Assembly: GCA_964545925.1 (NCBI GenBank)
Contig: CAZJHM010000002.1
Location: 17,546-36,867 of the forward strand
Length of the DNA: 19,322 nucleotides
Direction of reading: 5' to 3'
DNA from: an uncultured archaeon
Lineage (GTDB): Archaea; Iainarchaeota; Iainarchaeia; Iainarchaeales; CAZJHM01
A program made the translations under genes and the position numbers. The stretch's first letter is position 1, and every line of letters begins with the position of its first letter. Positions 341 through 17,585 of this stretch are shown here, piece by piece. Below the pieces are notes generated by a model that was not told where the DNA came from, ran no database searches, and worked only from the letters and a program-made list of their open reading frames with translations.

Positions 341-1209
341 TCTTTACAAAAGCAAAAGCAATTTTTTCACAAAAAGTAAAACTTTCAGAAAAAGAAATAG
401 ATTCACTTTTATTTGATATTGAAATGTCTTTAATTCAAGCAGATGTAGAACTAGAGACAGCACAACAATTAACAAAATATATGAAAGAATCTCTTTTAGA
501 AAAAGAATTTTCAAAAGAATCCCTTTCAAAAGACTTAGACACAGCAATGAAACAAGCAATTGAAAAACTAATAGATATTCCTTATCCAAATTTAATAGAA
601 GAAATAAAACAAAAAAAGAAACCAGTGAAGATTTTATTTTTCGGCCCAAATGGAGCAGGAAAAACAACAACAATTGCAAAAATAGCTGAACATTTAAAAA
701 ACGAAAATTTAACTTCAATTTTAGCAGCAGGAGATACTTTCAGAGCAGCATCAATAGAACAAATAAAAAAACATGCAGACAGATTAAATCTAAGATTAAT
801 AAGTCATTCTTATGGAGCAGACCCATCAGCAGTTGCTTTTGATGCAATAAAAGCAGCAGAAGCAAACAACATAGATGTAGTTTTAATAGACACAGCAGGA
901 AGACAAGAAACAAACACAAACCTTTTGAAAGAACTAAGTAAAATAGTTAGAGTATCAAAACCAGATTATAAAATATATGTCGGAGAATCAATTTCAGGAA
1001 CAGCAATTTTAAATCAAGCAAAAGAGTTTGATAAAGAGTTTGGTTTAGATGGTTTCATACTTACTAAATTAGATTTAGACCCAAAAGGAGGCTCAGCTCT
1101 TTCTTTAATTTACAATCTTCAAAAACCAATCTATTTCTTTGGAACAGGGCAAACCTATAAAGACTTGAAACACTTCTCAAAACAAGAACTCTTAAACCAA
1201 ATCCTCTGA
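1..1209 (+). CDS. ftsY: Signal recognition particle receptor FtsY. It is 5'-partial: the reading frame is open from base 1 in frame with the 424 ATG. The N-terminus is a low-complexity acidic/lysine/proline-rich A-domain followed by the NG GTPase domain.
   Basis: Frame 1 has no stop from 1 to 1209. The N-terminal translation TPKPQPKKETTKPEIP...EPEIQIQKEIQEQKEIPIQKE is typical of an FtsY A-domain. SRP-GTPase motifs are present: GPNGAGKTTTIAKIA (G1), DTFRAA, DTAGR (G3), TKLDLDPKGG (G4). The protein ends directly after the NG domain with no M domain, which separates it from SRP54. Confidence 0.9.
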   Translation, partial: TPKPQPKKETTKPEIPAPRKIKEPEIPPQKKPEEKKKGFLEKIFGVPKQPSQKEPEKEIPIQKEPETQKIPEIPFSREPEIQIQKEIQEQKEIPIQKEQIEIQKKEEKQPKLGIFTKAKAIFSQKVKLSEKEIDSLLFDIEMSLIQADVELETAQQLTKYMKESLLEKEFSKESLSKDLDTAMKQAIEKLIDIPYPNLIEEIKQKKKPVKILFFGPNGAGKTTTIAKIAEHLKNENLTSILAAGDTFRAASIEQIKKHADRLNLRLISHSYGADPSAVAFDAIKAAEANNIDVVLIDTAGRQETNTNLLKELSKIVRVSKPDYKIYVGESISGTAILNQAKEFDKEFGLDGFILTKLDLDPKGGSALSLIYNLQKPIYFFGTGQTYKDLKHFSKQELLNQIL

Positions 1210-1246
1210 AAACATCTTTTTATTTCTTTCCCCCCAAATTCTATTT

Positions 1247-2563
1247 ATGTTAGGACAAGCCTTAAGAAATGCATTAGACAAAATAAAGTCAACTTTCACA
1301 GACAATGAAATGGAAGAGTCTATAAAAGATATCCAAAGAGCACTTCTTCAATCAGATGTAGATGTAGAATTAGTTTTTGAAATTTCAAAAAAATTAAAAG
1401 ATTTAATAAAAGAAGAACAACCAAAAGGAATTACAAGAAAAGAATTCTTCACAAAACAAGCTTTTGAATTATTAGCAGATTTATTAGGAGGAAAACCAAA
1501 AGAAAGAGAACCAAAGAAAATTCTTTTAGTAGGTTTATTTGGTTCAGGAAAAACAACAACCTCAGCAAAACTAGCCCATTTCTACCAAAAAAGAGGAAAA
1601 AAAGTTCTTTTAGTAGCAGCAGACACTTATCGTCCAGCAGCTTATGAACAATTAAAACAATTATCAGAAAAAATCCAAGTTTCTTTCTACGGAGAACCAG
1701 AAGAAACAAATCCATCAAAAATTGTTAGAAATGCTTTAAAGGAAAAAGCAGACATAATTATAGTTGATTCAGCAGGAAGAAATGCTTTAGATTCTGAATT
1801 ACAAAAAGAAATCAAAGAAATAAAAAAAGAATTAAATCCAGACAACACTTGGTTGGTTTTAAGTGGAGACATAGGAAAAATAGCAAAACCTCAAGCTCAA
1901 GCATTTCATGATTTAGTAGATGTAAATGGAGTAATTATTACAAAATTAGATGGTTCAGGAAAAGGAGGAGGAGCATTAGCAGCTTGCAGACAAACTCAAG
2001 CCCCAGTTCTTTTTATAGGAACAGGAGAACACATAGATGATTTGGAAATATTTGATGCAGAAAGATTTCTAAGCAGAGTAATGGGATATGGAGATTTACA
2101 AGGATTAATGGAAAAAATCTCAAATATTCAAGATGAAATTGAAAATCCTTTAGAATCAGAGTTTACATTAGAATCTTATTACAAACAATTAGAACAAACA
2201 AAAAAAATGGGCTCTTTAGGAAAGATAGCAGAAATGATTGGTTTGAAACAAGCAATACCTCAACAACAATTAGACATGACTGAAGAGAAGATGAAACATT
2301 TCAAATATATTATGGATTCAATGACAAAAAAAGAAAGAAAAAATCCAGAAATTCTATCTCACTCAAGAATAGAAAGAATAGCAAAAGGTTCAGGAACTCC
2401 AACAGAAGAAATCAGACAACTTTTAAAACAATATAAGCTAATGAAAAATGCATTTGAAAAAATGAAAGATATTCAACAAGAAGATTTGAAAGAAGGTTCA
2501 TTTGAACAAATAGCAAAGAAGTTAGGTATGGGAAAAAAGAAAAAGAAAAAAAGGTTCTGGTAA
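1247..2563 (+). CDS. srp54: Signal recognition particle protein SRP54, with NG domain and a methionine-rich M domain.
   Basis: GLFGSGKTTTSAKLA (G1), DTYRPAA, DSAGR, TKLDGSGKGGGALAA. The C-terminal M-domain is Met-rich (MGSLGKIAEMIGLK...MTEEKMKHFKYIMDSMTKKERKNPEIL). The K-rich tail ends at a TAA that overlaps the next ATG (TAATG at 2561-2565). Confidence 0.93.
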   Translation: MLGQALRNALDKIKSTFTDNEMEESIKDIQRALLQSDVDVELVFEISKKLKDLIKEEQPKGITRKEFFTKQAFELLADLLGGKPKEREPKKILLVGLFGSGKTTTSAKLAHFYQKRGKKVLLVAADTYRPAAYEQLKQLSEKIQVSFYGEPEETNPSKIVRNALKEKADIIIVDSAGRNALDSELQKEIKEIKKELNPDNTWLVLSGDIGKIAKPQAQAFHDLVDVNGVIITKLDGSGKGGGALAACRQTQAPVLFIGTGEHIDDLEIFDAERFLSRVMGYGDLQGLMEKISNIQDEIENPLESEFTLESYYKQLEQTKKMGSLGKIAEMIGLKQAIPQQQLDMTEEKMKHFKYIMDSMTKKERKNPEILSHSRIERIAKGSGTPTEEIRQLLKQYKLMKNAFEKMKDIQQEDLKEGSFEQIAKKLGMGKKKKKKRFW

Positions 2564-3324
2564 TGATTCTCTTTAAACAACTAATAATTCTCTTTTTCAC
2601 ATCCATAGCTTCCTTTCAAGACATAAAAGAAAGAGAAGTTTCAGATATTCTTAATTATTCTTTTCTTTTCTTCTCTCTTTTACTAATAATTTATTTACAA
2701 GAATATACAAGCATTTTCTATGCTTCTTTAGTTTTCTTAATAGGATATCTCTTATACAGAAAAGGAATAATAGGAGGAGGAGATGTAAAACTTTTAACAG
2801 CAACCAGTCTTTTACTTCCTTTTTATAATCAAAGATTTCTTATTTTAGATATTGTTTTCTTAGCAATTCTCTTAACTTCTCTTGCTCTTTCCCCAAACTT
2901 AATAAAATATTTAAGAAAAAAGAAAATAAAAGCAATAAAGGAAAACAAAACAAATCTTTTTTCTTCTTCAATTTTTTTCTTAGCTCTTGTTTTTATTTTT
3001 CTAACTCTTTCTCTCCCTCTCACTCCAACAAATATTCTTCTTTCTCTTTTAGTTTTATTAGCAATAATCTATTCAGGTTTTGAAAAAGGAGTAAGAAAAA
3101 TGTTTTATTTAAAGGAAATTTCAATAAATCAATTACAAGAAGATGAAATAGTAGAAACAGAAAATCTACCAAAAGAATTCCAAAATAATTTCCTAACAAG
3201 AAAAGAATTCAATCAATTGAAAAAATTAGGATACAAGAAACTAAAAGTTTATAGAAATCTTCCACCTTTAGTTCCCTTTATCTTCATAGCAGAAGTAATT
3301 ATTTTCGGAATCCAATTTCTATAA
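2563..3324 (+). CDS. A24-family aspartic membrane peptidase, an archaeal preflagellin/prepilin peptidase of the FlaK/PibD type, with a C-terminal extension.
   Basis: Polytopic membrane protein. The first catalytic-Asp motif is SFQDIKEREVSD (FlaK-like D-x-K-x-R-E-x-x-D). The second is IIGGGDVKLLTA, matching the GxGDxKL signature of type IV prepilin peptidases. Its start is translationally coupled to the srp54 stop. Confidence 0.7.
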   Translation: MILFKQLIILFFTSIASFQDIKEREVSDILNYSFLFFSLLLIIYLQEYTSIFYASLVFLIGYLLYRKGIIGGGDVKLLTATSLLLPFYNQRFLILDIVFLAILLTSLALSPNLIKYLRKKKIKAIKENKTNLFSSSIFFLALVFIFLTLSLPLTPTNILLSLLVLLAIIYSGFEKGVRKMFYLKEISINQLQEDEIVETENLPKEFQNNFLTRKEFNQLKKLGYKKLKVYRNLPPLVPFIFIAEVIIFGIQFL

Positions 3325-3378: not shown

Positions 3379-4230
3379 TTAAATCATTTTTTTCTTCTTA
3401 AACTCTTCAATCATTAGTTTAATCCCTTCTTTATATCCTGTCTTAGGAGCCCAACCAATATTTCTTATCTTAGTTATATCATATTTTCTTTCGCGAACTA
3501 ATCTAGTTATATGTTCAGGAATAATAGAAGGATGTTTTTTGAAACTCTCATTTATTGCATATATCTGCCCAAACAACATAGGAACACTACTTCCTTTTCC
3601 CAATCCAAGATTTTTCCTAATTTCTTCATAAATATCTCTTAGACTAACATTTTCATCATTTGCAACAACAAAAGTCTCACCCAAAACCCCTTTTTTGAAA
3701 ATTAACATTTCAATAACTTCAGCCAAATCCTCAACATAAATAGTTTGCCATTGAAAGTTCCCAGAACTTATCAAAGGTTTTTTAGATTGTTTAGTAATTC
3801 CAACCCAATATCTATTTGTCCCCAAAACCAATGCACTTCTTATTATCACATGATTTTTAAATCCTCTAACAATCATCTCAGCCATTTGCTTACTTCTTTC
3901 ATATGGGGTTTCTGGGGCATATTTGCTTTTTTCATCAAAAGGAGTATCTGAAAGAGCACATACTCCACTTGTGCTTAAATAAACTAATTTCTTAACTTTG
4001 TTTTCTTTGCATGCTTTAACAACATTATCAGTTCCAATAACATTTACTTCAAATAAATCTGGACTTTGTTCATCTAACACAGCAGCCATATGCAAAACAA
4101 TGTCTGCATTTTTTGTTTGTTTTAAACAATTCTTGTAATCTCTTATATCTCCCTTAAACTTTTTAGCTCCCTTTAATCTTTTCATAACTCTTTTCCCAAC
4201 AAATCCATCATGTCCAATAACTAAAATCAT
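3379..4230 (-). CDS. NAD-dependent epimerase/dehydratase of the extended SDR family; probably a nucleotide-sugar epimerase or reductase.
   Basis: N-terminal Rossmann motif MILVIGHDGFVGKRV (GxxGxxG). Catalytic YxxxK in PYERSKQMAEM. About 283 aa. Its start ATG overlaps the upstream gene's stop (ATGA at 4227-4230). Confidence 0.8.
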   Translation of the reverse strand: MILVIGHDGFVGKRVMKRLKGAKKFKGDIRDYKNCLKQTKNADIVLHMAAVLDEQSPDLFEVNVIGTDNVVKACKENKVKKLVYLSTSGVCALSDTPFDEKSKYAPETPYERSKQMAEMIVRGFKNHVIIRSALVLGTNRYWVGITKQSKKPLISSGNFQWQTIYVEDLAEVIEMLIFKKGVLGETFVVANDENVSLRDIYEEIRKNLGLGKGSSVPMLFGQIYAINESFKKHPSIIPEHITRLVRERKYDITKIRNIGWAPKTGYKEGIKLMIEEFKKKKMI

Positions 4231-5027
4231 AATAATCCTCCAATTATCAATGCAATCATATATACAATCATCCCTTTCTTATATATTTCTTGTGCATTTG
4301 AATATTTGCCAGAAAGAAGTTTTTTAATTCCAAAAATAAATATTAAAAAACTTAAACTTGTCAAAATTAAATAATACAAACTAAACACACTATATAGATA
4401 AATCGCAAAAGGAAATCCAGCCAAAACAAATGCCCCTCCTATTACTCCTGCCCATTTTTTCCCAATAACAGAAGGAAACCCTTTTTTCTCTTCTTTATCT
4501 CTTTCATAATCTTCCAAATCTTTTGCAATTTCTCTCCCAACATTTACTAAAAAAGCAGAAGTGCTTGCATAAAGAACAATTCCAATATTACCAGCAATTA
4601 TTCCTCCAAAAAGAAAAGTTAATCCAGTTCCCAAAGCAACAGCAAAGTTCCCAAGCCATTTTAATTCTTTCATAATAAATGCATAAATAATCATCAAAAG
4701 ATAAATCCCAATAGCTAACACACTTCCCCAAAAACCTAAGACAAGCGAAAGTCCAAGAGAAATAAAACTTAAGATAAAAAATAATTTCCAAGCATTTTCT
4801 AGAGAAATTTTCCCAGAACTTATTGGGTTTTTCTCTTTGGAATCTCTTTTCCAATCAGCAATATTATTAGCAATGTTTCCACAAGCACATATACCAAAAG
4901 CAACAATTCCACCAATTAATCCATATTCCCAAAAAATTCCAGCTTCAATCCAAAATCCAATCAAAACAGCAAGAAGAGCAATTAAACAATTCCCAATTCT
5001 TATCAACCTTAATACATCTTTTAGCAT
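4227..5027 (-). CDS. UbiA-family prenyltransferase, most likely digeranylgeranylglyceryl phosphate (DGGGP) synthase.
   Basis: Polytopic membrane protein with two Asp-rich motifs: NIANNIADWKRD (NxxxDxxxD) and REIAKDLEDYERD (DxxxD). The track start at 5042 is TTG. I place the start at the in-frame ATG at 5027 (MLKDVLRLIRIGNCL...), which fits a UbiA N-terminus. Confidence 0.7.
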   Translation of the reverse strand: MLKDVLRLIRIGNCLIALLAVLIGFWIEAGIFWEYGLIGGIVAFGICACGNIANNIADWKRDSKEKNPISSGKISLENAWKLFFILSFISLGLSLVLGFWGSVLAIGIYLLMIIYAFIMKELKWLGNFAVALGTGLTFLFGGIIAGNIGIVLYASTSAFLVNVGREIAKDLEDYERDKEEKKGFPSVIGKKWAGVIGGAFVLAGFPFAIYLYSVFSLYYLILTSLSFLIFIFGIKKLLSGKYSNAQEIYKKGMIVYMIALIIGGLL

Positions 5028-5046
5028 AATAAAAAAACCCAAATCC

Positions 5047-6457: not shown

Positions 6458-7225
6458 ATGGATAAGGGAATTTACAAGAAAATTCTAAAATTAATACAAG
6501 AAAAAGGAACATTAACTTTTATGCAAATTGACCCTCCAAATTACAATCCAGAACAAATTCCAAAAATAGCAAAGATAGCAGCAGATAATGGAATCTCGGC
6601 ATTTGCAGTTGGAGGCTCAGTAGGAGCACAAGGAAAAATCTTGGAAGATGCTTTAATATCAATAAAAGATGTTTGTGACACACCAACAATTCTTTTTCCA
6701 GGAAACATAGCAACTCTCTCCTCAAAAGCAGATGCAGTTTATCTCTTAAGTATGCTTAATTCAAATGACCCTTATTGGATATCAGGAGCACAAATAGCTT
6801 CTTCTTTCCCAATAAAGAAAATGAATTTAGAAGTAATTCCAACATCTTATATAATAGTTGAACCAGGAAGAGCAGTAGGATGGATAGGAAGAGCCCAACC
6901 AATACCAAGAAACATACCTTATTTAGCAGCAGCAACTTGCTTAGCAGGAGAATACATGGGAGCAAAACTTCTTCTTTTAGAATCAGGAGGAGGAGCAGAA
7001 TCCCCAGCCCCACCTGAAATGATTAAAATAATAAAAAAACATACAACTATTCCTTTAGGTGTAGCAGGAGGAATAAGAACTGAGAAAAATGCTCAAGACA
7101 CAGCAGCAGCAGGAGCAGACATTATTCAAGTAGGCACAGTTTTTGAAAATTCTTTCTCAACCTTAGGAAAAAGAGTCAATAATATAGTCAAAGCCGCAGA
7201 AAAAGGAGCAAAGCAAAGAAAATAA
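6458..7225 (+). CDS. Geranylgeranylglyceryl phosphate synthase (GGGP synthase, PcrB family), the first committed enzyme of archaeal ether-lipid synthesis.
   Basis: TIM-barrel PcrB/GGGPS signatures: FMQIDPPNY (compare the H..LDP N-terminal motif), AFAVGGS, LLLLESGGGAESPAPPEMIKIIKK, and PLGVAGGIRTEKNAQDTAAAGADIIQVGTVFE (compare GGGI..E.A......AD.IVVGN). Confidence 0.85.
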   Translation: MDKGIYKKILKLIQEKGTLTFMQIDPPNYNPEQIPKIAKIAADNGISAFAVGGSVGAQGKILEDALISIKDVCDTPTILFPGNIATLSSKADAVYLLSMLNSNDPYWISGAQIASSFPIKKMNLEVIPTSYIIVEPGRAVGWIGRAQPIPRNIPYLAAATCLAGEYMGAKLLLLESGGGAESPAPPEMIKIIKKHTTIPLGVAGGIRTEKNAQDTAAAGADIIQVGTVFENSFSTLGKRVNNIVKAAEKGAKQRK

Positions 7226-10194: not shown

Positions 10195-10253
10195 AGGGTT
10201 GTAGAACTCCTCAAAAACAAAATCCTTTTTAATCTCATAAACCTATTTATCTT

Positions 10254-11180
10254 ATGCTTAAATTTCTCAAACAAAAATATCAGGGTTCTTTAGAATATCT
10301 CTTAGTTATCAGTGGAGCAATCTTAGTCGCAGTTATTGTCTTAATGGTTCTAAGTGGAACACCTATAACAAATAATGAAACAGCAATAGATGATTCAAAA
10401 TGTAGTCCATATGGAAATCAAAACTACTGCAATATAGCAGATATAGAAGGAGATGGAATAGTTGATTGCATTTGGAAAGACAATCAATGTCTCAGAAAAA
10501 CCATGAGAGATAGATTAAAAGAAGGCTTAGTCCTTTTCTTGAAAATGGATGATTCAAATGCAACTCACACAGCAGTAATCCAAGATTCCTCAGGTTATAA
10601 CAACAATGGAATTCTTTACACAGGAGAGGGAGCAACAAGCAAATCAATAGCAGGAAGATATGGAAATGCAATCACCTTTGATGGAACAAATGATTATATA
10701 TCAGTATTACCAGATACAAGTTTAGACATAAATAATTATCTTTCATTGTGTGCTTGGGTAAAACTAAATTCCAAAAATATTGACCAAAAAATAATTGCAA
10801 GAGTTTCAAGAAATCCAGATTTTTGGGGATATCAACTTGATATTTTTTCTGATAATAAATTAGAAATGATTACTGGAGGCACAACAAGATGGAATACAAC
10901 TAGAGGAGTTTCAGGGGGAACATCTTTAGATACAGGAACATGGTATTATGTTACAGGCATATTTGATGGAGTTAGAAATAAAACATATATAAATGGGGTT
11001 TTAGATCGTAATAATAATATTTCATATGGTTTATCTAGTTTAAGTCAAATATTAAATATAGGAAAATCAACTGAAGGAACAGGTTATTATTTCAACGGAA
11101 TAATAGACGAAGTAGCAATTTGGAACAGAGCATTATCAGAATCAGAAATAAAAGAAATTTATACAAATGGATTAGATTGA
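10254..11180 (+). CDS. Secreted or surface protein with an archaeal class-III (type IV pilin-like) signal peptide fused to a LamG/concanavalin-A-like lectin domain. It is a putative pilus-associated adhesin.
   Basis: The N-terminus MLKFLKQKYQG-SLEYLLVISGAILVAVIVLMVL has a basic leader, a Gly, and a SLEYLL hydrophobic core typical of archaeal prepilin-like (DUF361 / class III signal) proteins. The C-terminal region carries LamG_3 hallmarks: GNAITFDGTNDYISV, LSLCAWVKLNS, TWYYVTGIFDG and the near-invariant FNGIIDEVAIWNRALSESEIKEIYTNG. Confidence 0.75.
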   Translation: MLKFLKQKYQGSLEYLLVISGAILVAVIVLMVLSGTPITNNETAIDDSKCSPYGNQNYCNIADIEGDGIVDCIWKDNQCLRKTMRDRLKEGLVLFLKMDDSNATHTAVIQDSSGYNNNGILYTGEGATSKSIAGRYGNAITFDGTNDYISVLPDTSLDINNYLSLCAWVKLNSKNIDQKIIARVSRNPDFWGYQLDIFSDNKLEMITGGTTRWNTTRGVSGGTSLDTGTWYYVTGIFDGVRNKTYINGVLDRNNNISYGLSSLSQILNIGKSTEGTGYYFNGIIDEVAIWNRALSESEIKEIYTNGLD

Positions 11181-15223: not shown

Positions 15224-15703
15224 TCAGATTTTTTCTCTTTCTAAAATTATTTTATTAGTTAATCCATATTTCTGTTTTTTTATCAATCTTTTTTCTTCTA
15301 ATCTTAAAAGAGTTCTATGAACTTGTATTTTACTCATTCCTGTTTCTTTAACAATTTTTGATTGTGTGCTTTCTTCATCATTATTTGATAAATATTCAAT
15401 TATCTTTTTTTCATCAGGCAATAAAAAATCTCCCATTATTTGCTTTTTCATTTTTTTAACTTCTTTTTTTTCTTTTATTTCTTTTATTGTTAGTCCAGCT
15501 AAGAGACTAACTATACTTCCAACTAAAGCAAGAATGATTGAAATAATATTAACAGACCTAAATGCATCATTCATTTTCCTTTGATTAAAAATTGGAGATT
15601 GGAAAAAATTATTATCGTCTTCATTGTTTGCTCCATTTGGAAAATTTCCGTTTGGAAACCTATTCAAATCAATATTTCTTTCCACTTCAATTGTCTGAAA
15701 CAA
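15224..15703 (-). CDS. Membrane-anchored winged-helix (MarR/TrmB-like) transcriptional regulator. It has an N-terminal N/P-rich extracytoplasmic tail, a single TM helix, and a C-terminal cytoplasmic wHTH.
   Basis: TM helix is VNIISIILALVGSIVSLLAGLTI, followed by a positive-inside KEIKEKKEVKKMKKQ. The wHTH is LLPDEKKIIEYLSNNDEESTQSKIVKETGMSKIQVHRTLLRLEEKRLIKKQKYGLTNKII. The start is uncertain. The longest ORF begins with TTG at 15703 and has 43 stop-free upstream codons, which is unlikely by chance in this AT-rich DNA. The first ATG is at 15574 (116-aa version) and has an AAAGGA element upstream. Confidence 0.55.
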   Translation of the reverse strand: MFQTIEVERNIDLNRFPNGNFPNGANNEDDNNFFQSPIFNQRKMNDAFRSVNIISIILALVGSIVSLLAGLTIKEIKEKKEVKKMKKQIMGDFLLPDEKKIIEYLSNNDEESTQSKIVKETGMSKIQVHRTLLRLEEKRLIKKQKYGLTNKIILEREKI

Positions 15704-16125
15704 TCTCGGAAACCCTTAGCACTTTAACTCTTTTTTTAGGAGCAATAGCAGCAATTTCTCTTTTAGTTGGAGCAGTTGGAGTTGCAAACAGTATGTTTAC
15801 CTCTGTTCTTGAAAAAACAAGAGAAATTGGAATTCTAAAAGCTTTAGGAGCAACAGAAAATGAAGTTCTTCTTCTTTTTATATTTGAATCTGGGCTTTTT
15901 GGTTTTGTAGGAGGTGTCCTTGGAATTTTATTAAGTTATATTCTTTCTTATGCAATGCTTATTTTTGGAATAACTCTTTTTTCATCTTCTTCTCAAGTTT
16001 ATATAAGCCCTGTTCTGATAATAGGTGCAATTATAATGTCCACTTTGATTGGAATTGTTTCAGGTGTTTTTCCAGCTCGCTCAGCCTCTAAACTTAAACC
16101 AATAGAAGTTCTTCGCCAAAACTAA
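15592..16125 (+). pseudogene. N-terminally truncated FtsX/MacB-family ABC transporter permease. Only the C-terminal FtsX domain (TM2-TM4) is present. It is probably a gene remnant.
   Basis: From about 15700 on, LSTLTLFLGAIAAISLLVGAVGVANSMFTSVLEKTREIGILKALGATENEVLLLFIFESGLFGFVGGVLGILLSY matches the conserved FtsX-domain core (compare ...[22 protein letters not shown]....I..QFL.EA...). TM1 and the large extracytoplasmic domain are missing. The first ~37 codons of the ORF are not protein-like and overlap the minus-strand regulator. No partner ATPase gene is adjacent. Confidence 0.5.
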
Positions 16126-16137
16126 TTTTTCTCTAAT

Positions 16138-16869
16138 TTAACACAACCCATTAAAATCAGAAGGAAGTCTTCCTTTCAAAAGAAGATAAAACAAATTATC
16201 AGTCAGCCAAATCTTTGCACAACCTAAATAAGGAACTACAAAAAATACTTTTCCTTGAATCTCATTTTCAGAAACAGGATAAAGTGTTATACAAGCTTTT
16301 TTAGGCAAGCCATTAATAATTACTCCACAATCTTGGTCAATAGTTGGATTCTTCAAACTATCTCCTTTTGTTAAATAATATTTTCCATCTAAAGCCTGAA
16401 TCCCTAATACAGTTCTATGTATTATAGATTTTTTCTGCAACTCAGACCAATAAACAACAATATCTCCACTAGTTTCTAATTCAATTTTCTTTCCCTCTAA
16501 ATTTATTGTCTTTGCTCTTAAAACATTATCAACTATTTCGTATTCTATTTCTCCAATTTCTGAAAAACTTTTTCCTTTAATATATTTCTCTATGGAAACT
16601 TCAAGAGAATTTATTTCTCCTCCTCCCCAAAGAAAGATTATATCTCCTCTATTTAATACAGGTTCCATAGATGCACTCATTACAACACTTATTGGCATAT
16701 CTGTCTGAAAGACTAAGCCCAAAAACAAAAGAAAGAGCCATGCAAAAACAAATGCACTAACCAAATGAACAATAAATTCTCTATTACTATCTCCATTAGG
16801 ATTAACAACAGGCATTAGATATTTATCAACATAAAAAAAAGGGTCTAACCATTTAAGTTTATCCTTCAT
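16138..16869 (-). CDS. Signal peptidase I, archaeal/eukaryotic Sec11 type (S26B).
   Basis: Catalytic Ser box VVMSASMEPVLNRGDIIF (SxSMxP..rGD), His box SIIHRTV, and TKGDSLKNPTIDQD (compare the GDNN..D box). There is an N-terminal TM anchor. The ATGA overlap at 16866-16869 couples it to the upstream gene. Confidence 0.8.
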   Translation of the reverse strand: MKDKLKWLDPFFYVDKYLMPVVNPNGDSNREFIVHLVSAFVFAWLFLLFLGLVFQTDMPISVVMSASMEPVLNRGDIIFLWGGGEINSLEVSIEKYIKGKSFSEIGEIEYEIVDNVLRAKTINLEGKKIELETSGDIVVYWSELQKKSIIHRTVLGIQALDGKYYLTKGDSLKNPTIDQDCGVIINGLPKKACITLYPVSENEIQGKVFFVVPYLGCAKIWLTDNLFYLLLKGRLPSDFNGLC

Positions 16870-17504
16870 TTTTCCACTTTCTTATACTCAAAATAAGAAT
16901 AAGCAAATAAATATCCTGTGGCAAGCAAAATACAAACAATAAAGAAAATAAACAATCCCTTTATCATTCCAAGCAAAACCATCAAAACACAAATCAATCC
17001 AAATACTTTGAATATTTTTCCTCCCAATTTATTTGTTTTATCCCAAATTTTATCACTAGACATTGTCCAAGGAGTTCTTATTCCAATAAACCAATTTCTT
17101 TTTGATTTTTCCATTACAACTCCAGCATAAAATAAAATAACAGCAATTCCTCCAATTGTCATTGCCCCAATATCCAATTCATATCCATAATTAACAGTAA
17201 TTACAATTGCATGCAAATACAAAAGAAACAAAAGCAAAAGAACGACAAATTTTTCATAATATCCTTCAAACTTCTTAATATTTTTAGTTGGGTCAATTTT
17301 AGGAATAACCAAGAAAACAACAACCATTGCTAAACTGAGCAAAGGCATTATTGCCAATCCCCAAAACTTGTCCATATAACCATTTGCTTCTCCTTCTAGT
17401 CCCCAATGTGTAATCATTTCATCAGGCATTTGTTCATAGACTGCAAAAGAAAAAACAAACCCCAATAATATAATAATTAATGCAATTTTTTCCATACTAA
17501 TCAT
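16866..17504 (-). CDS. DUF1648 / SdpI(YfhL)-family polytopic membrane protein.
   Basis: N-terminal MPDEMITHWGLEGEANGY resembles the DUF1648 motif (P.HW...G..D). The near-diagnostic SdpI-family motif NWFIGIRTPWTMSS is present, with about six TM helices. The track start at 17513 is TTG; in-frame ATGs lie at 17504 and 17495. Confidence 0.65.
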   Translation of the reverse strand: MISMEKIALIIILLGFVFSFAVYEQMPDEMITHWGLEGEANGYMDKFWGLAIMPLLSLAMVVVFLVIPKIDPTKNIKKFEGYYEKFVVLLLLFLLYLHAIVITVNYGYELDIGAMTIGGIAVILFYAGVVMEKSKRNWFIGIRTPWTMSSDKIWDKTNKLGGKIFKVFGLICVLMVLLGMIKGLFIFFIVCILLATGYLFAYSYFEYKKVEK

Positions 17505-17585
17505 ACTCACCAAGCAAATAAAAAACTATCCTCTTTTATTTTCTCCATTCTAAAATATAATAACTCCGGCATTCAGCCTCCATCT

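What the first reader, a model, noticed from the sequence alone, without database searches (positions are those of the whole stretch)
10254..11180. Pilin-type signal peptide fused to a LamG lectin domain: a candidate host-attachment adhesin with its processing peptidase in the same window
The 308-aa protein starts with a class-III / type-IV-pilin-like signal (MLKFLKQKYQG|SLEYLLVISGAILVAVIVLMVL). The rest of the protein is a LamG_3 / concanavalin-A-like lectin domain with the near-invariant C-terminal motif FNGIIDEVAIWNRALSESEIKEIY. Archaeal pilins are usually small structural subunits, so a pilin signal carrying a lectin-like beta-sandwich suggests a pilus-tip or surface-displayed adhesin. The only A24 prepilin/preflagellin peptidase in the window (2563-3324) is the natural candidate to process it. 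If the genome is from a small-genome episymbiotic (DPANN-like) archaeon, host-cell or glycan attachment is a plausible function. No other pilus genes lie between them (no pilus ATPase or platform), so this looks like a minimal or distributed system.
Basis: partly seen in the sequence, partly recalled or inferred. Interest (0 to 1): 0.7.

Follow-up and report, generated by a model that had tools for sequence, protein, structure and literature searches.

The report
Archaeal pilin fused to a lectin domain
This gene encodes a complete miniature archaeal type IV pilin with a sugar-binding-type (LamG) domain attached, most likely a pilus-displayed adhesin of a small DPANN-like archaeon; this design is already known from bacteria, so it is a useful but not surprising find.

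The parts
10254..11180 (+). Whole gene: 308-aa modular pilin (class-III leader + mini-pilin module + LamG_3 module), stop codon included
10254..10280 (+). Leader peptide aa 1-9 (MLKFLKQKY): 3 Lys, no acidic residue; K8 at -2 is canonical, Y9 at -1 is non-canonical
   Evidence: In 45 relatives the -1 residue is G 32, A 11, S 1, Y 1 (the Y is the target); the -2 residue is K 32, R 7.
10281..10352 (+). aa 10-33: QGSLEYLLVISGAILVAVIVLMVL, the predicted mature N-terminus (+1 Gln, +5 Glu) and hydrophobic alpha1-N helix / transmembrane segment
   Evidence: PF04021 alignment to aa 10-32; helix 10-33 / 12-33 in both AF2 models; invariant Q10 G11 L13 E14 Y15
10353..10508 (+). aa 34-85: pilin head with four conserved Cys (C50, C59, C72, C79); helix 39-50, short helix 56-59, beta-hairpin 72-81. 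Stand-alone family members end just after the 4th Cys.
   Evidence: pLDDT 88-91 for aa 50-80
10440..10466 (+). aa 63-71: D-I-E-G-D-G-I-V-D loop between the Cys pairs, resembling the DxDxDGxxD Ca2+-binding loop of FG-GAP/dockerin repeats (inferred)
   Evidence: Multi-stretch hits are FG-GAP/dockerin proteins matching only this loop
10527..11168 (+). aa ~92-305: LamG_3 / concanavalin-A-like jelly roll, the lectin module
2563..3324 (+). A24 aspartyl prepilin/preflagellin-type peptidase (253 aa), the candidate processing enzyme; FlaK-sized, catalytic D20 (SFQD) and D74 (GGGD) present

Best explanation
The gene encodes a modular minor type IV pilin of an Epd-like ('System 1') archaeal type IV filament, in a low-GC, DPANN-type archaeon. 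Shown: the protein has three parts. They are a 9-aa basic leader, a complete mini-pilin module (hydrophobic alpha1 helix starting at Gln10 with Glu at +5, then a ~50-aa four-Cys head), and a ~215-aa LamG/ConA-like jelly roll that begins exactly where stand-alone family members end. Inferred mechanism: the preprotein inserts into the membrane with its N-terminus inside. An A24 peptidase removes the leader on the cytoplasmic side. The ATPase/platform machinery, encoded elsewhere in the genome, lifts the helix out of the membrane into the filament core. Because the 25-kDa LamG module is three times the size of the ~8-kDa pilin module, the subunit fits best at the pilus tip or as a sparse minor subunit. 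There the LamG module binds a glycan or glycoprotein on a host cell or other surface. It works like S. sanguinis PilC and the lectin-like minor pilins of Saccharibacteria. The Tyr at -1 makes the processing step the weakest link.
Against: The -1 residue is Tyr, the only such case among 45 relatives. -1 Gly is critical for FlaK, and all listed archaeal sites have G/A/S at -1 (PMC4187195, PMC4371748). PF04021 is below its cut-off (16.5 vs 23.7 bits). No ATPase, platform or other pilin gene is in the 19-kb window, and the rest of the genome could not be reached. The window's A24 lacks the EppA-type Arc_PepC domain. No ligand, filament or processing data exist. LamG domains also mediate protein-protein binding, so a lectin function is inferred from fold neighbours only.
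Confidence: 0.55

Rival explanations
1. Membrane-anchored surface lectin derived from a pilin. The class-III site is degenerate (Tyr at -1), so the leader is not removed. The N-terminal helix then acts as a permanent signal-anchor, and the LamG module is displayed on a short Cys-stabilised stalk at the cell surface rather than on a pilus.
For: Y9 at -1 is unique among 45 relatives. The closest fragment P0121 (65% identical) still has Ala there, so this is a recent lineage-specific change. -1 Gly/Ala is required by the characterised peptidases (PMC4187195). In bacteria unprocessed pilins are not assembled (general knowledge of type IV pilus biogenesis). The gene lies among housekeeping genes.
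Against: The rest of the pilin module is fully conserved: +1 Q, +5 E, the helix, 4 Cys and K at -2. That argues for continued selection for pilin function. PibD-type enzymes are more permissive (PMC4187195). An alternative G11|S12 cut (small residue at -1) remains possible. Stand-alone location is also seen for the canonical-site homologues.
Confidence: 0.28
2. Bindosome-like display. The class-III signal is processed, and the protein is assembled into a short pseudopilus-like surface structure that positions a carbohydrate-binding module for capturing or scavenging polysaccharide substrates, rather than for attaching to a host cell.
Against: No ABC transporter or glycoside hydrolase lies next to the gene here or in three homologous loci. 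The N-terminal module is homologous to pilins that sit in Epd-like pilus clusters, not to Sulfolobus Bas components.
Confidence: 0.12
3. Ordinary secreted or Sec-anchored LamG surface protein whose N-terminus only resembles a class-III signal by chance.
For: PF04021 is below its gathering cut-off. LamG_3 occurs behind many kinds of N-terminal signals: Sec, SipW-type, PGF-CTERM proteins and bacterial prepilin.
Against: The N-terminal 100 aa alone hit class-III pilins with E down to 1e-13 against 1.84 billion sequences. The signal motif and all four Cys are in conserved columns (Q10, G11, L13, E14, Y15, C50, C59, C79 invariant; C72 >=90%), and homologues pass PF04021.
Confidence: 0.03

Closest known systems
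Streptococcus sanguinis PilC (modular minor type IV pilin with a ConA-like lectin module; PDB 7OA7/7OA8; PMC9934059) and 'modular pilins' in general (PMC8179133)
   Different: The pilin module is of the archaeal PF04021/Epd type (+1 Gln, QGSLEYLL, 4-Cys head), not the bacterial G|FTLxE N-methyl type (IPR012902/PF07963). There is no intervening Ig-like module. Sequence identity to PilC is about 14%. The published modular-pilin census used only the bacterial signature. The target has Tyr at -1.
Methanococcus maripaludis Epd pilins / EppA substrates (PF04021, formerly DUF361; PMC4371748, PMC3875500)
   Same: QxSxE motif with +1 Gln and +5 Glu, a short basic leader and a small mature size for the pilin module. 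Relatives' gene clusters have one ATPase plus two platform genes plus a large EppA-like A24 peptidase.
   Different: Epd pilins have no LamG graft and no four-Cys/DxDGDG head. The target's -1 residue is Tyr instead of Gly/Ala. The window's A24 is short and lacks the EppA C-terminal domain.
Saccharibacteria (TM7x) lectin-like minor pilins PilX1/PilX2 (PMC11623550)
   Same: An ultrasmall, host-dependent organism and a minor pilin with a large C-terminal lectin-like domain (PilX1 is a beta-jelly roll). PilX2 was shown experimentally to be needed for host binding. This is the ecological scenario proposed here.
   Different: It is a bacterial T4P system. The pilX genes lie inside pilus loci. There is no detectable sequence relationship in the pilin part.
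Haloarcula hispanica TafC, tip subunit of Tat-fimbriae (NCBIfam NF052521; PMC11821415)
   Same: An archaeal filament subunit whose C-terminal laminin-G-like domain is modelled at the filament tip. The target's aa 116-305 match the TafC model's LamG part (E=1.1e-13).
   Different: Tat-secreted, assembled by donor-strand exchange, with a TafA-like N-domain. The score is 51 bits against a 410-bit cut-off, so the target is not a member.
Sulfolobus bindosome sugar-binding proteins (GlcS/AraS) and other SPIII-bearing binding proteins (PMC4187195; 10.64898/2026.04.22.720090)
   Same: Archaeal class-III signal placed in front of a functional binding domain, with genes scattered away from the assembly machinery.
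   Different: Those are ABC-transporter solute-binding folds processed by PibD and assembled by the Bas system. Here a complete Epd-type pilin head precedes a lectin fold.

Membership tests
Pfam PF13385 Laminin_G_3 (ConA-like lectin/glucanase superfamily) | HMM score above the gathering cut-off | tested here: met
   103.9 bits against 27.6, E=1.2e-29, profile positions 1-151 of 151
Pfam PF13385 Laminin_G_3 (ConA-like lectin/glucanase superfamily) | Two-sheet jelly-roll fold | tested here: met
Pfam PF13385 Laminin_G_3 (ConA-like lectin/glucanase superfamily) | Carbohydrate or other ligand binding | not testable with these tools
   Only fold neighbours (CBM40, AbnA domain 4, PilC) suggest glycan binding.
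Pfam PF04021 Class III signal peptide (Epd/EppA-substrate type) | HMM score above the gathering cut-off (23.7 bits) | tested here: not met
   16.5 bits, E=0.0085. Homologues P0125, P0141, P0140, P0124 and others score 24-30 bits.
Pfam PF04021 Class III signal peptide (Epd/EppA-substrate type) | QxSxExxxL motif with Gln at +1 and Glu at +5, followed by ~20 hydrophobic residues | tested here: met
   Q10-G-S12-L-E14-Y-L-L-V18 (Val in place of the final Leu), then a hydrophobic stretch to residue 33
Pfam PF04021 Class III signal peptide (Epd/EppA-substrate type) | Small residue (Gly/Ala) at -1 and a basic residue at -2 | tested here: not met
   -2 is Lys (met), but -1 is Tyr. Among 45 relatives the -1 residue is G 32, A 11, S 1, Y 1, and the Y is the target.
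Pfam PF04021 Class III signal peptide (Epd/EppA-substrate type) | Sequence homology to accepted members | tested here: met
   phmmer with aa 1-100 gives E 1e-13 to 1e-3 to 45 class-III proteins; invariant Q10 G11 L13 E14 Y15
Pfam PF04021 Class III signal peptide (Epd/EppA-substrate type) | Cleavage by an A24 prepilin peptidase | not testable with these tools
   Needs a biochemical assay or N-terminal mass spectrometry.
Type IV pilin (subunit of an archaeal type IV filament) | N-terminal hydrophobic alpha-helix followed by a globular head | tested here: met
   AF2: helix 12-33 plus 39-50, then a 4-Cys head with hairpin 72-81, pLDDT 79.6
Type IV pilin (subunit of an archaeal type IV filament) | Cognate ATPase and platform protein in the same genome | not testable with these tools
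   None in the window, and the rest of the genome is not retrievable. Stand-alone relatives of the N-terminal module sit in T2SSE-T2SSF-T2SSF clusters in 3 of 3 contigs examined.
Type IV pilin (subunit of an archaeal type IV filament) | Incorporation into a filament | not testable with these tools
   Requires experiment.
Modular pilins sensu Raynaud et al. 2021 (PMC8179133) | Pilin module joined by a short linker to a domain that is not specific to T4P biology | tested here: met
   The pilin module (aa 1-~85) equals full-length stand-alone pilins, and LamG starts at ~aa 92.
Modular pilins sensu Raynaud et al. 2021 (PMC8179133) | Bacterial prepilin N-methylation motif (IPR012902 / PF07963), as used in their census | tested here: not met
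   No PF07963 hit. The motif is the archaeal QGSLEYLL type. Bacterial LamG homologues such as P0012 and P0056 do carry PF07963.
NCBIfam NF052521 TafC family fimbrial protein | Score above the 410-bit cut-off with a full-length match including the TafA-like N-domain | tested here: not met
   51.1 bits, and only model positions 169-362 (the LamG part) are matched.
A24 prepilin peptidase (window 2563-3324) | Pfam Peptidase_A24 above its cut-off and two catalytic Asp (one in GxGD) | tested here: met
   50.4 bits against 26.5; D20 and D74 (GGGD) align with the catalytic Asp regions of FlaK 3S0X
EppA-type pilin-specific peptidase | Larger enzyme with extra TM segments and an Arc_PepC C-terminal domain; NCBIfam NF053826 | tested here: not met
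   The window enzyme is 253 aa, with no Arc_PepC hit even at E<=10 and no EppA hit. The cluster-encoded DPANN enzymes (314-369 aa) hit both. Weak C-terminal motif similarity only.

The most novel reading that the evidence does not exclude
DPANN archaea have a so far undescribed toolkit of modular pilins built on one conserved mini-pilin. That mini-pilin has an EppA-type leader, an alpha1 helix, and a four-Cys head with a Ca2+-loop-like DxDGDGxxD motif. Interchangeable binding modules (LamG, CBM60, beta-helix, ILEI, Ig-like, MopE) are grafted onto it, and together they determine host or surface recognition by these episymbionts. Within this toolkit the present protein, with Tyr at -1, is an uncleavable derivative that has changed from a pilus-tip adhesin into a membrane-anchored surface lectin. 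It would be a snapshot of how pilins are exapted into cell-surface receptors.
Probability: 0.2. Interest if true: 0.55.

Novelty: new member of a known kind. Interest (0 to 1): 0.38.

Why it matters
How DPANN archaea recognise and hold on to their hosts is largely unknown, and almost none are cultured. A pilin that carries its own lectin module is a concrete, testable candidate for the recognition step. It parallels the lectin-like minor pilins of Saccharibacteria, one of which (PilX2) was recently shown to be needed for host binding. The analysis also shows that the bacterial 'modular pilin' principle extends to archaeal Epd-type pilins, which earlier censuses missed because they used a bacterial signature. 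It identifies a compact 4-Cys pilin scaffold with several alternative grafts. The principle is established, LamG proteins are already known to be abundant in DPANN, and related proteins are already annotated as class-III-signal or LamG proteins. A specialist would therefore find this plausible rather than surprising.

Tried and rejected
(1) Exact-sequence contig look-ups for the target and for its closest LamG relative P0003 found nothing on record. Cluster look-ups gave no names or taxa. The organism and the rest of the 44-kb contig therefore stayed out of reach.
(2) The genome-contig scan did not contain the source genome. All 77 loci matched through LamG only, mostly in giant DPANN/CPR surface proteins. 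L040 and L060, which looked full-length, are not class-III proteins.
(3) The metagenome scan with the full-architecture profile gave no closer orthologue. The one full-length-looking hit, L095, is a 1,480-aa surface protein.
(4) A combined alignment of small pilins and LamG proteins (A4) was misaligned, with pilin Cys pulled onto C166 of LamG. I discarded it and modelled the pilin module separately.
(5) A Foldseek PDB search with the pilin-module model found nothing (best E=7). The afdb50 library was unavailable.
(6) TafC membership was rejected: 51 bits against a 410-bit cut-off, LamG part only.
(7) N-glycosylation sequons are not enriched: 5 observed against 4.7 +/- 1.9 expected.
(8) The multi-stretch hits of the N-terminal query to large proteins are not homologues of the pilin. 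They are FG-GAP/dockerin repeat proteins sharing only the DxDGDG loop.
(9) The PibD mutagenesis paper (PMC161584) is not held. Tolerance at -1 rests on two reviews.
(10) Model coordinates are not exposed, so disulfide geometry (C50-C59, C72-C79) could not be measured.

Full report
**1. The observation**

The ORF at 10254-11180 (+) is real: ATG start, 308 aa, and the translation is exactly as quoted. Pfam places a full-length Laminin_G_3 domain at aa 143-300 (103.9 bits, E=1.2e-29, cut-off 27.6). It also gives a sub-threshold Class_IIIsignal (PF04021) hit at aa 10-32 (16.5 bits, E=0.0085, cut-off 23.7). In an alignment with 82 homologues the C-terminal block FNGIIDEV.I.NRALS is the conserved core: D285, N291, R292, A293, L294 and S295 are at least 90% conserved. 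ORF 2563-3324 is an A24 peptidase (50.4 bits), and its D20 (SFQD) and D74 (GGGD) align with the catalytic regions of FlaK, PDB 3S0X.

The other ORFs are archaeal housekeeping genes:
- FtsY and SRP54
- GGGP synthase and a DGGGP-synthase-like UbiA
- RNA cyclase, DUF373 and an SPFH protein
- a GTPase, PTH2, LonB and PCNA
- archaeal signal peptidase I, NurA and a HAD hydrolase

There is no pilus ATPase or platform gene. GC content is about 30%. A scan of all ORFs of at least 40 aa, using every possible start codon, found no other class-III-like N-terminus in the window.

**2. The LamG part**

Sequence searches show that LamG_3 is a promiscuous surface module. It sits behind Sec signals, SipW-type signals, PGF-CTERM anchors, bacterial prepilin signals (PF07963, mostly CPR bacteria) and archaeal pilin-like N-termini. 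It also occurs inside giant DPANN/CPR surface proteins. The nearest relatives are only 35-39% identical, and only over the LamG part.

An AF2 model (pLDDT 84.6, pTM 0.77) gives a confident beta-sandwich for aa ~92-305.
- Foldseek matches the lectin-like H_CN domain of clostridial neurotoxins (E about 1e-12).

**3. The N-terminal part is a complete pilin module (the main new result)**

I searched aa 1-100 alone against 1.84 billion representative proteins. This gave 88 hits at E <= 1e-3. Forty-five carry QG[AS][LI]E[YF][LI] within their first 45 residues. About 35 of these are complete proteins of 83-124 aa. They align with the target from the leader through four conserved cysteines and then stop, exactly where the target's LamG extension begins. 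In a 66-sequence alignment Q10, G11, L13, E14, Y15, A22, V29, C50, C59 and C79 are invariant, and C72 is at least 90% conserved.

The remaining hits are FG-GAP/dockerin repeat proteins that share only the D-x-D-G-D-G-x-x-D loop. The target has this loop as D63-I-E-G-D-G-I-V-D71. That suggests, by inference only, a Ca2+-binding loop in the pilin head.

A profile of the small proteins retrieves 890 relatives (E <= 1e-6). Almost all are flagged PF04021 and, where named, are called 'class III signal peptide-containing protein [Candidatus Diapherotrites archaeon]' or UPF0333.

In three independent contigs (L080, L081, L082) these small pilins lie in a conserved cluster:
- T2SSE ATPase
- T2SSF and a second T2SSF
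- a 47-aa class-III mini-protein
- 82-95-aa pilins
- an A24 peptidase with an Arc_PepC domain
- two small unknown ORFs

One ATPase with two platform genes is the hallmark of the Epd-like 'System 1', which a recent survey reports in methanogens and DPANN (10.64898/2026.04.22.720090).

An AF2 model of aa 1-95 with this family as alignment (pLDDT 79.6) shows helix 12-33 continuing in helix 39-50, then a compact head with a hairpin at 72-81 (pLDDT 88-91 for aa 50-80). It has no counterpart in the PDB by Foldseek.

**4. The architecture recurs**

P0125 (319 aa) has a canonical class-III signal (RRG|QG, PF04021 at 30.4 bits), the 4-Cys head and LamG_3 (E=2.9e-29). It aligns with the target over its whole length. 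P0122 (N-terminally truncated), P0211, P0220 and P0252 share the design. P0248 has a class-III signal plus LamG without the Cys head.

Other family members keep the pilin module but carry ILEI, right-handed beta-helix, CBM60, CarboxypepD_reg/Big_1/macroglobulin, MopE or PSI modules instead.

The LamG-bearing genes that could be located (P0220, P0211, P0125) are all stand-alone genes among housekeeping neighbours, as here. This matches the many stand-alone pilin genes noted for archaeal T4P (PMC4858521). 'Distributed' is therefore supported, and 'minimal' is not.

**5. The processing site and the peptidase**

For PF04021/EppA-type substrates the cleavage is before a conserved Gln. [quoted passage not shown] Glu sits at +5 and the sites read KG|Q or RA|Q (PMC4371748). 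The DPANN family pattern [KR][GA]|QG[AS]LEYLL is in the same register.

K8 at -2 is canonical, but Tyr at -1 is unique. Among 45 relatives the -1 residue is G 32, A 11, S 1 and Y 1. The closest fragment (P0121, 65% identical) has Ala there. Against P0125 the target looks as if the Gly is missing. -1 Gly is critical for FlaK, while PibD is more permissive (PMC4187195).

Three outcomes are open:
- inefficient cleavage at Y|Q
- use of the next small residue (G11|S12, which would shift Glu to +3)
- no cleavage

The window's A24 is 253 aa. It is 32-44% identical to the cluster-encoded DPANN enzymes over the catalytic part and shares weak C-terminal motifs with them. Unlike them, it has no detectable Arc_PepC domain and no NCBIfam EppA hit. 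EppA is the larger, pilin-specific enzyme that requires +1 Gln, whereas M. maripaludis FlaK does not cut +1-Gln substrates (PMC4371748). On the other hand, many archaea use a single peptidase for all class-III substrates (PMC4371748), and the DPANN archaeon Mia14 has a single FlaK-like peptidase away from its two pilus loci (PMC5498576). The window's A24 is thus a reasonable candidate but an unproven one.

**6. Mechanism**

Shown: domain composition, homology of the N-terminal module to pilins of Epd-like clusters, the fold of the C-terminal module, and the presence of an intact A24 peptidase nearby.

Inferred, in order:
- membrane insertion with the N-terminus inside
- removal of the leader
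- extraction by the ATPase/platform machine into the filament
- placement at the tip or as a sparse subunit, because a 25-kDa LamG rides on a 7.9-kDa pilin module
- binding of a glycan or glycoprotein by LamG

I put this model at 0.55, the membrane-anchored (uncleaved) lectin at 0.28, a bindosome-like scavenging display at 0.12, and a chance resemblance at 0.03.

**7. Comparison with what is known**

- The closest mechanistic relative is S. sanguinis PilC, a modular minor pilin whose ConA-like module binds glycans and is modelled at the pilus tip (PMC9934059).
- More than 1,200 modular pilins were catalogued, but only through the bacterial IPR012902 signature (PMC8179133).
- The closest ecological analogue is Saccharibacteria TM7x, whose minor pilins PilX1 (jelly roll, lectin-like) and PilX2 carry large C-terminal domains. 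PilX2 is needed for host binding (PMC11623550).
- TafC puts a LamG domain at the tip of an unrelated Tat-dependent fimbria (PMC11821415).
- LamG proteins are noted as expanded in DPANN and sometimes linked to T4P loci (PMC5498576, PMC7443923).
- Library searches for 'class III signal peptide' plus 'laminin G', and for 'modular pilin', found no explicit description of an archaeal pilin-LamG fusion. The principle is nevertheless well established.

**8. Verdict**

This is a real, well-supported feature. I file it as a new (archaeal, DPANN-type) member of the known kind 'modular, lectin-bearing minor type IV pilins'. It fails two formal membership criteria of PF04021: the score cut-off and the -1 residue. 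It is homologous to the family all the same. Interest is 0.38. It is a good experimental handle on DPANN-host recognition and a pointer to an unsurveyed archaeal modular-pilin repertoire, but it is not a surprise to specialists. The most novel reading still open is a toolkit of interchangeable pilin grafts, with this copy caught in transition to a membrane-anchored receptor. I give that about 0.2.

Noticed in passing
window 424-3324: ftsY (424-1209), srp54 (1247-2563) and the A24 prepilin peptidase (2563-3324) are co-directional. The srp54 stop codon TAA (2561-2563) overlaps the peptidase ATG (2563-2565) as TAATG. This suggests translational coupling of the membrane-targeting genes with class-III signal processing.
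   Followed up: partly
L080:6027-12389, L081:5221-12469, L082:5953-12561: A conserved DPANN type IV filament cluster: T2SSE ATPase, two T2SSF platform genes, a 47-aa class-III mini-protein (possibly a headless major pilin like EpdE/Flp), 82-95-aa four-Cys pilins, an EppA-like A24 peptidase with Arc_PepC, then two conserved ORFs without any Pfam hit (~163-182 aa and ~116-122 aa).
   Followed up: partly
window 10440-10466 (aa 63-71): The pilin head contains D-I-E-G-D-G-I-V-D between the two Cys pairs. The same loop makes the query hit FG-GAP and dockerin repeat proteins, so it may be a Ca2+-binding loop. A strict regular expression finds it in about a third of the aligned small pilins (22 of 66).
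   Followed up: partly
proteins P0124, P0135, P0138, P0140, P0141, P0161, P0175: The same class-III + four-Cys pilin module is fused to other domains: ILEI, right-handed beta-helix/NosD, CarboxypepD_reg + Big_1 + macroglobulin, PSI, CBM60 and MopE. This points to an unsurveyed repertoire of archaeal modular pilins.
   Followed up: partly
protein P0248: A 287-aa protein with a class-III signal (NRA|QGALEILLLIGGA) and LamG but no Cys-rich head. This suggests that LamG was joined to class-III N-termini more than once.
   Followed up: no
window 4227-5042 and 6458-7225: Both a DGGGP-synthase-like UbiA prenyltransferase and a GGGP synthase (PcrB) are present, so this low-GC, DPANN-like archaeon keeps the ether-lipid backbone steps that many DPANN genomes lack. 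The UbiA gene overlaps the downstream NAD-epimerase gene (3379-4230) by 4 nt.
   Followed up: no
window 10226-10233: A TATA-like TTTTTAAT lies 21-28 nt upstream of the ATG of the pilin-LamG gene, in the 59-nt gap after the SPFH gene. This could be an own promoter giving a leaderless or short-leader mRNA. The evidence is weak in a 70% A+T genome.
   Followed up: no
window 15224-16125: A membrane-anchored winged-helix protein (DUF7343, 15224-15703, minus strand) overlaps by 112 nt a plus-strand ORF (15592-16125). That ORF matches only the C-terminal ~140 residues of MacB/FtsX-type permeases, so it may be a truncated permease gene or a mis-set start.
   Followed up: no
window 16138-16869: The archaeal signal peptidase I homologue (243 aa) matches the 158-position TIGR02228 model in two separate stretches, which implies a sizeable insertion. 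It is followed by an SdpI/DUF1648 membrane protein (16866-17513) that overlaps it by 4 nt.
   Followed up: no
protein P0003: The closest LamG relative (39% identical, 217 aa, NCBI) begins MKMDDFNATHTAVIQD, which matches the target from aa 96. Either its pilin module was lost or its gene start is mis-called. The contig could not be retrieved.
   Followed up: partly
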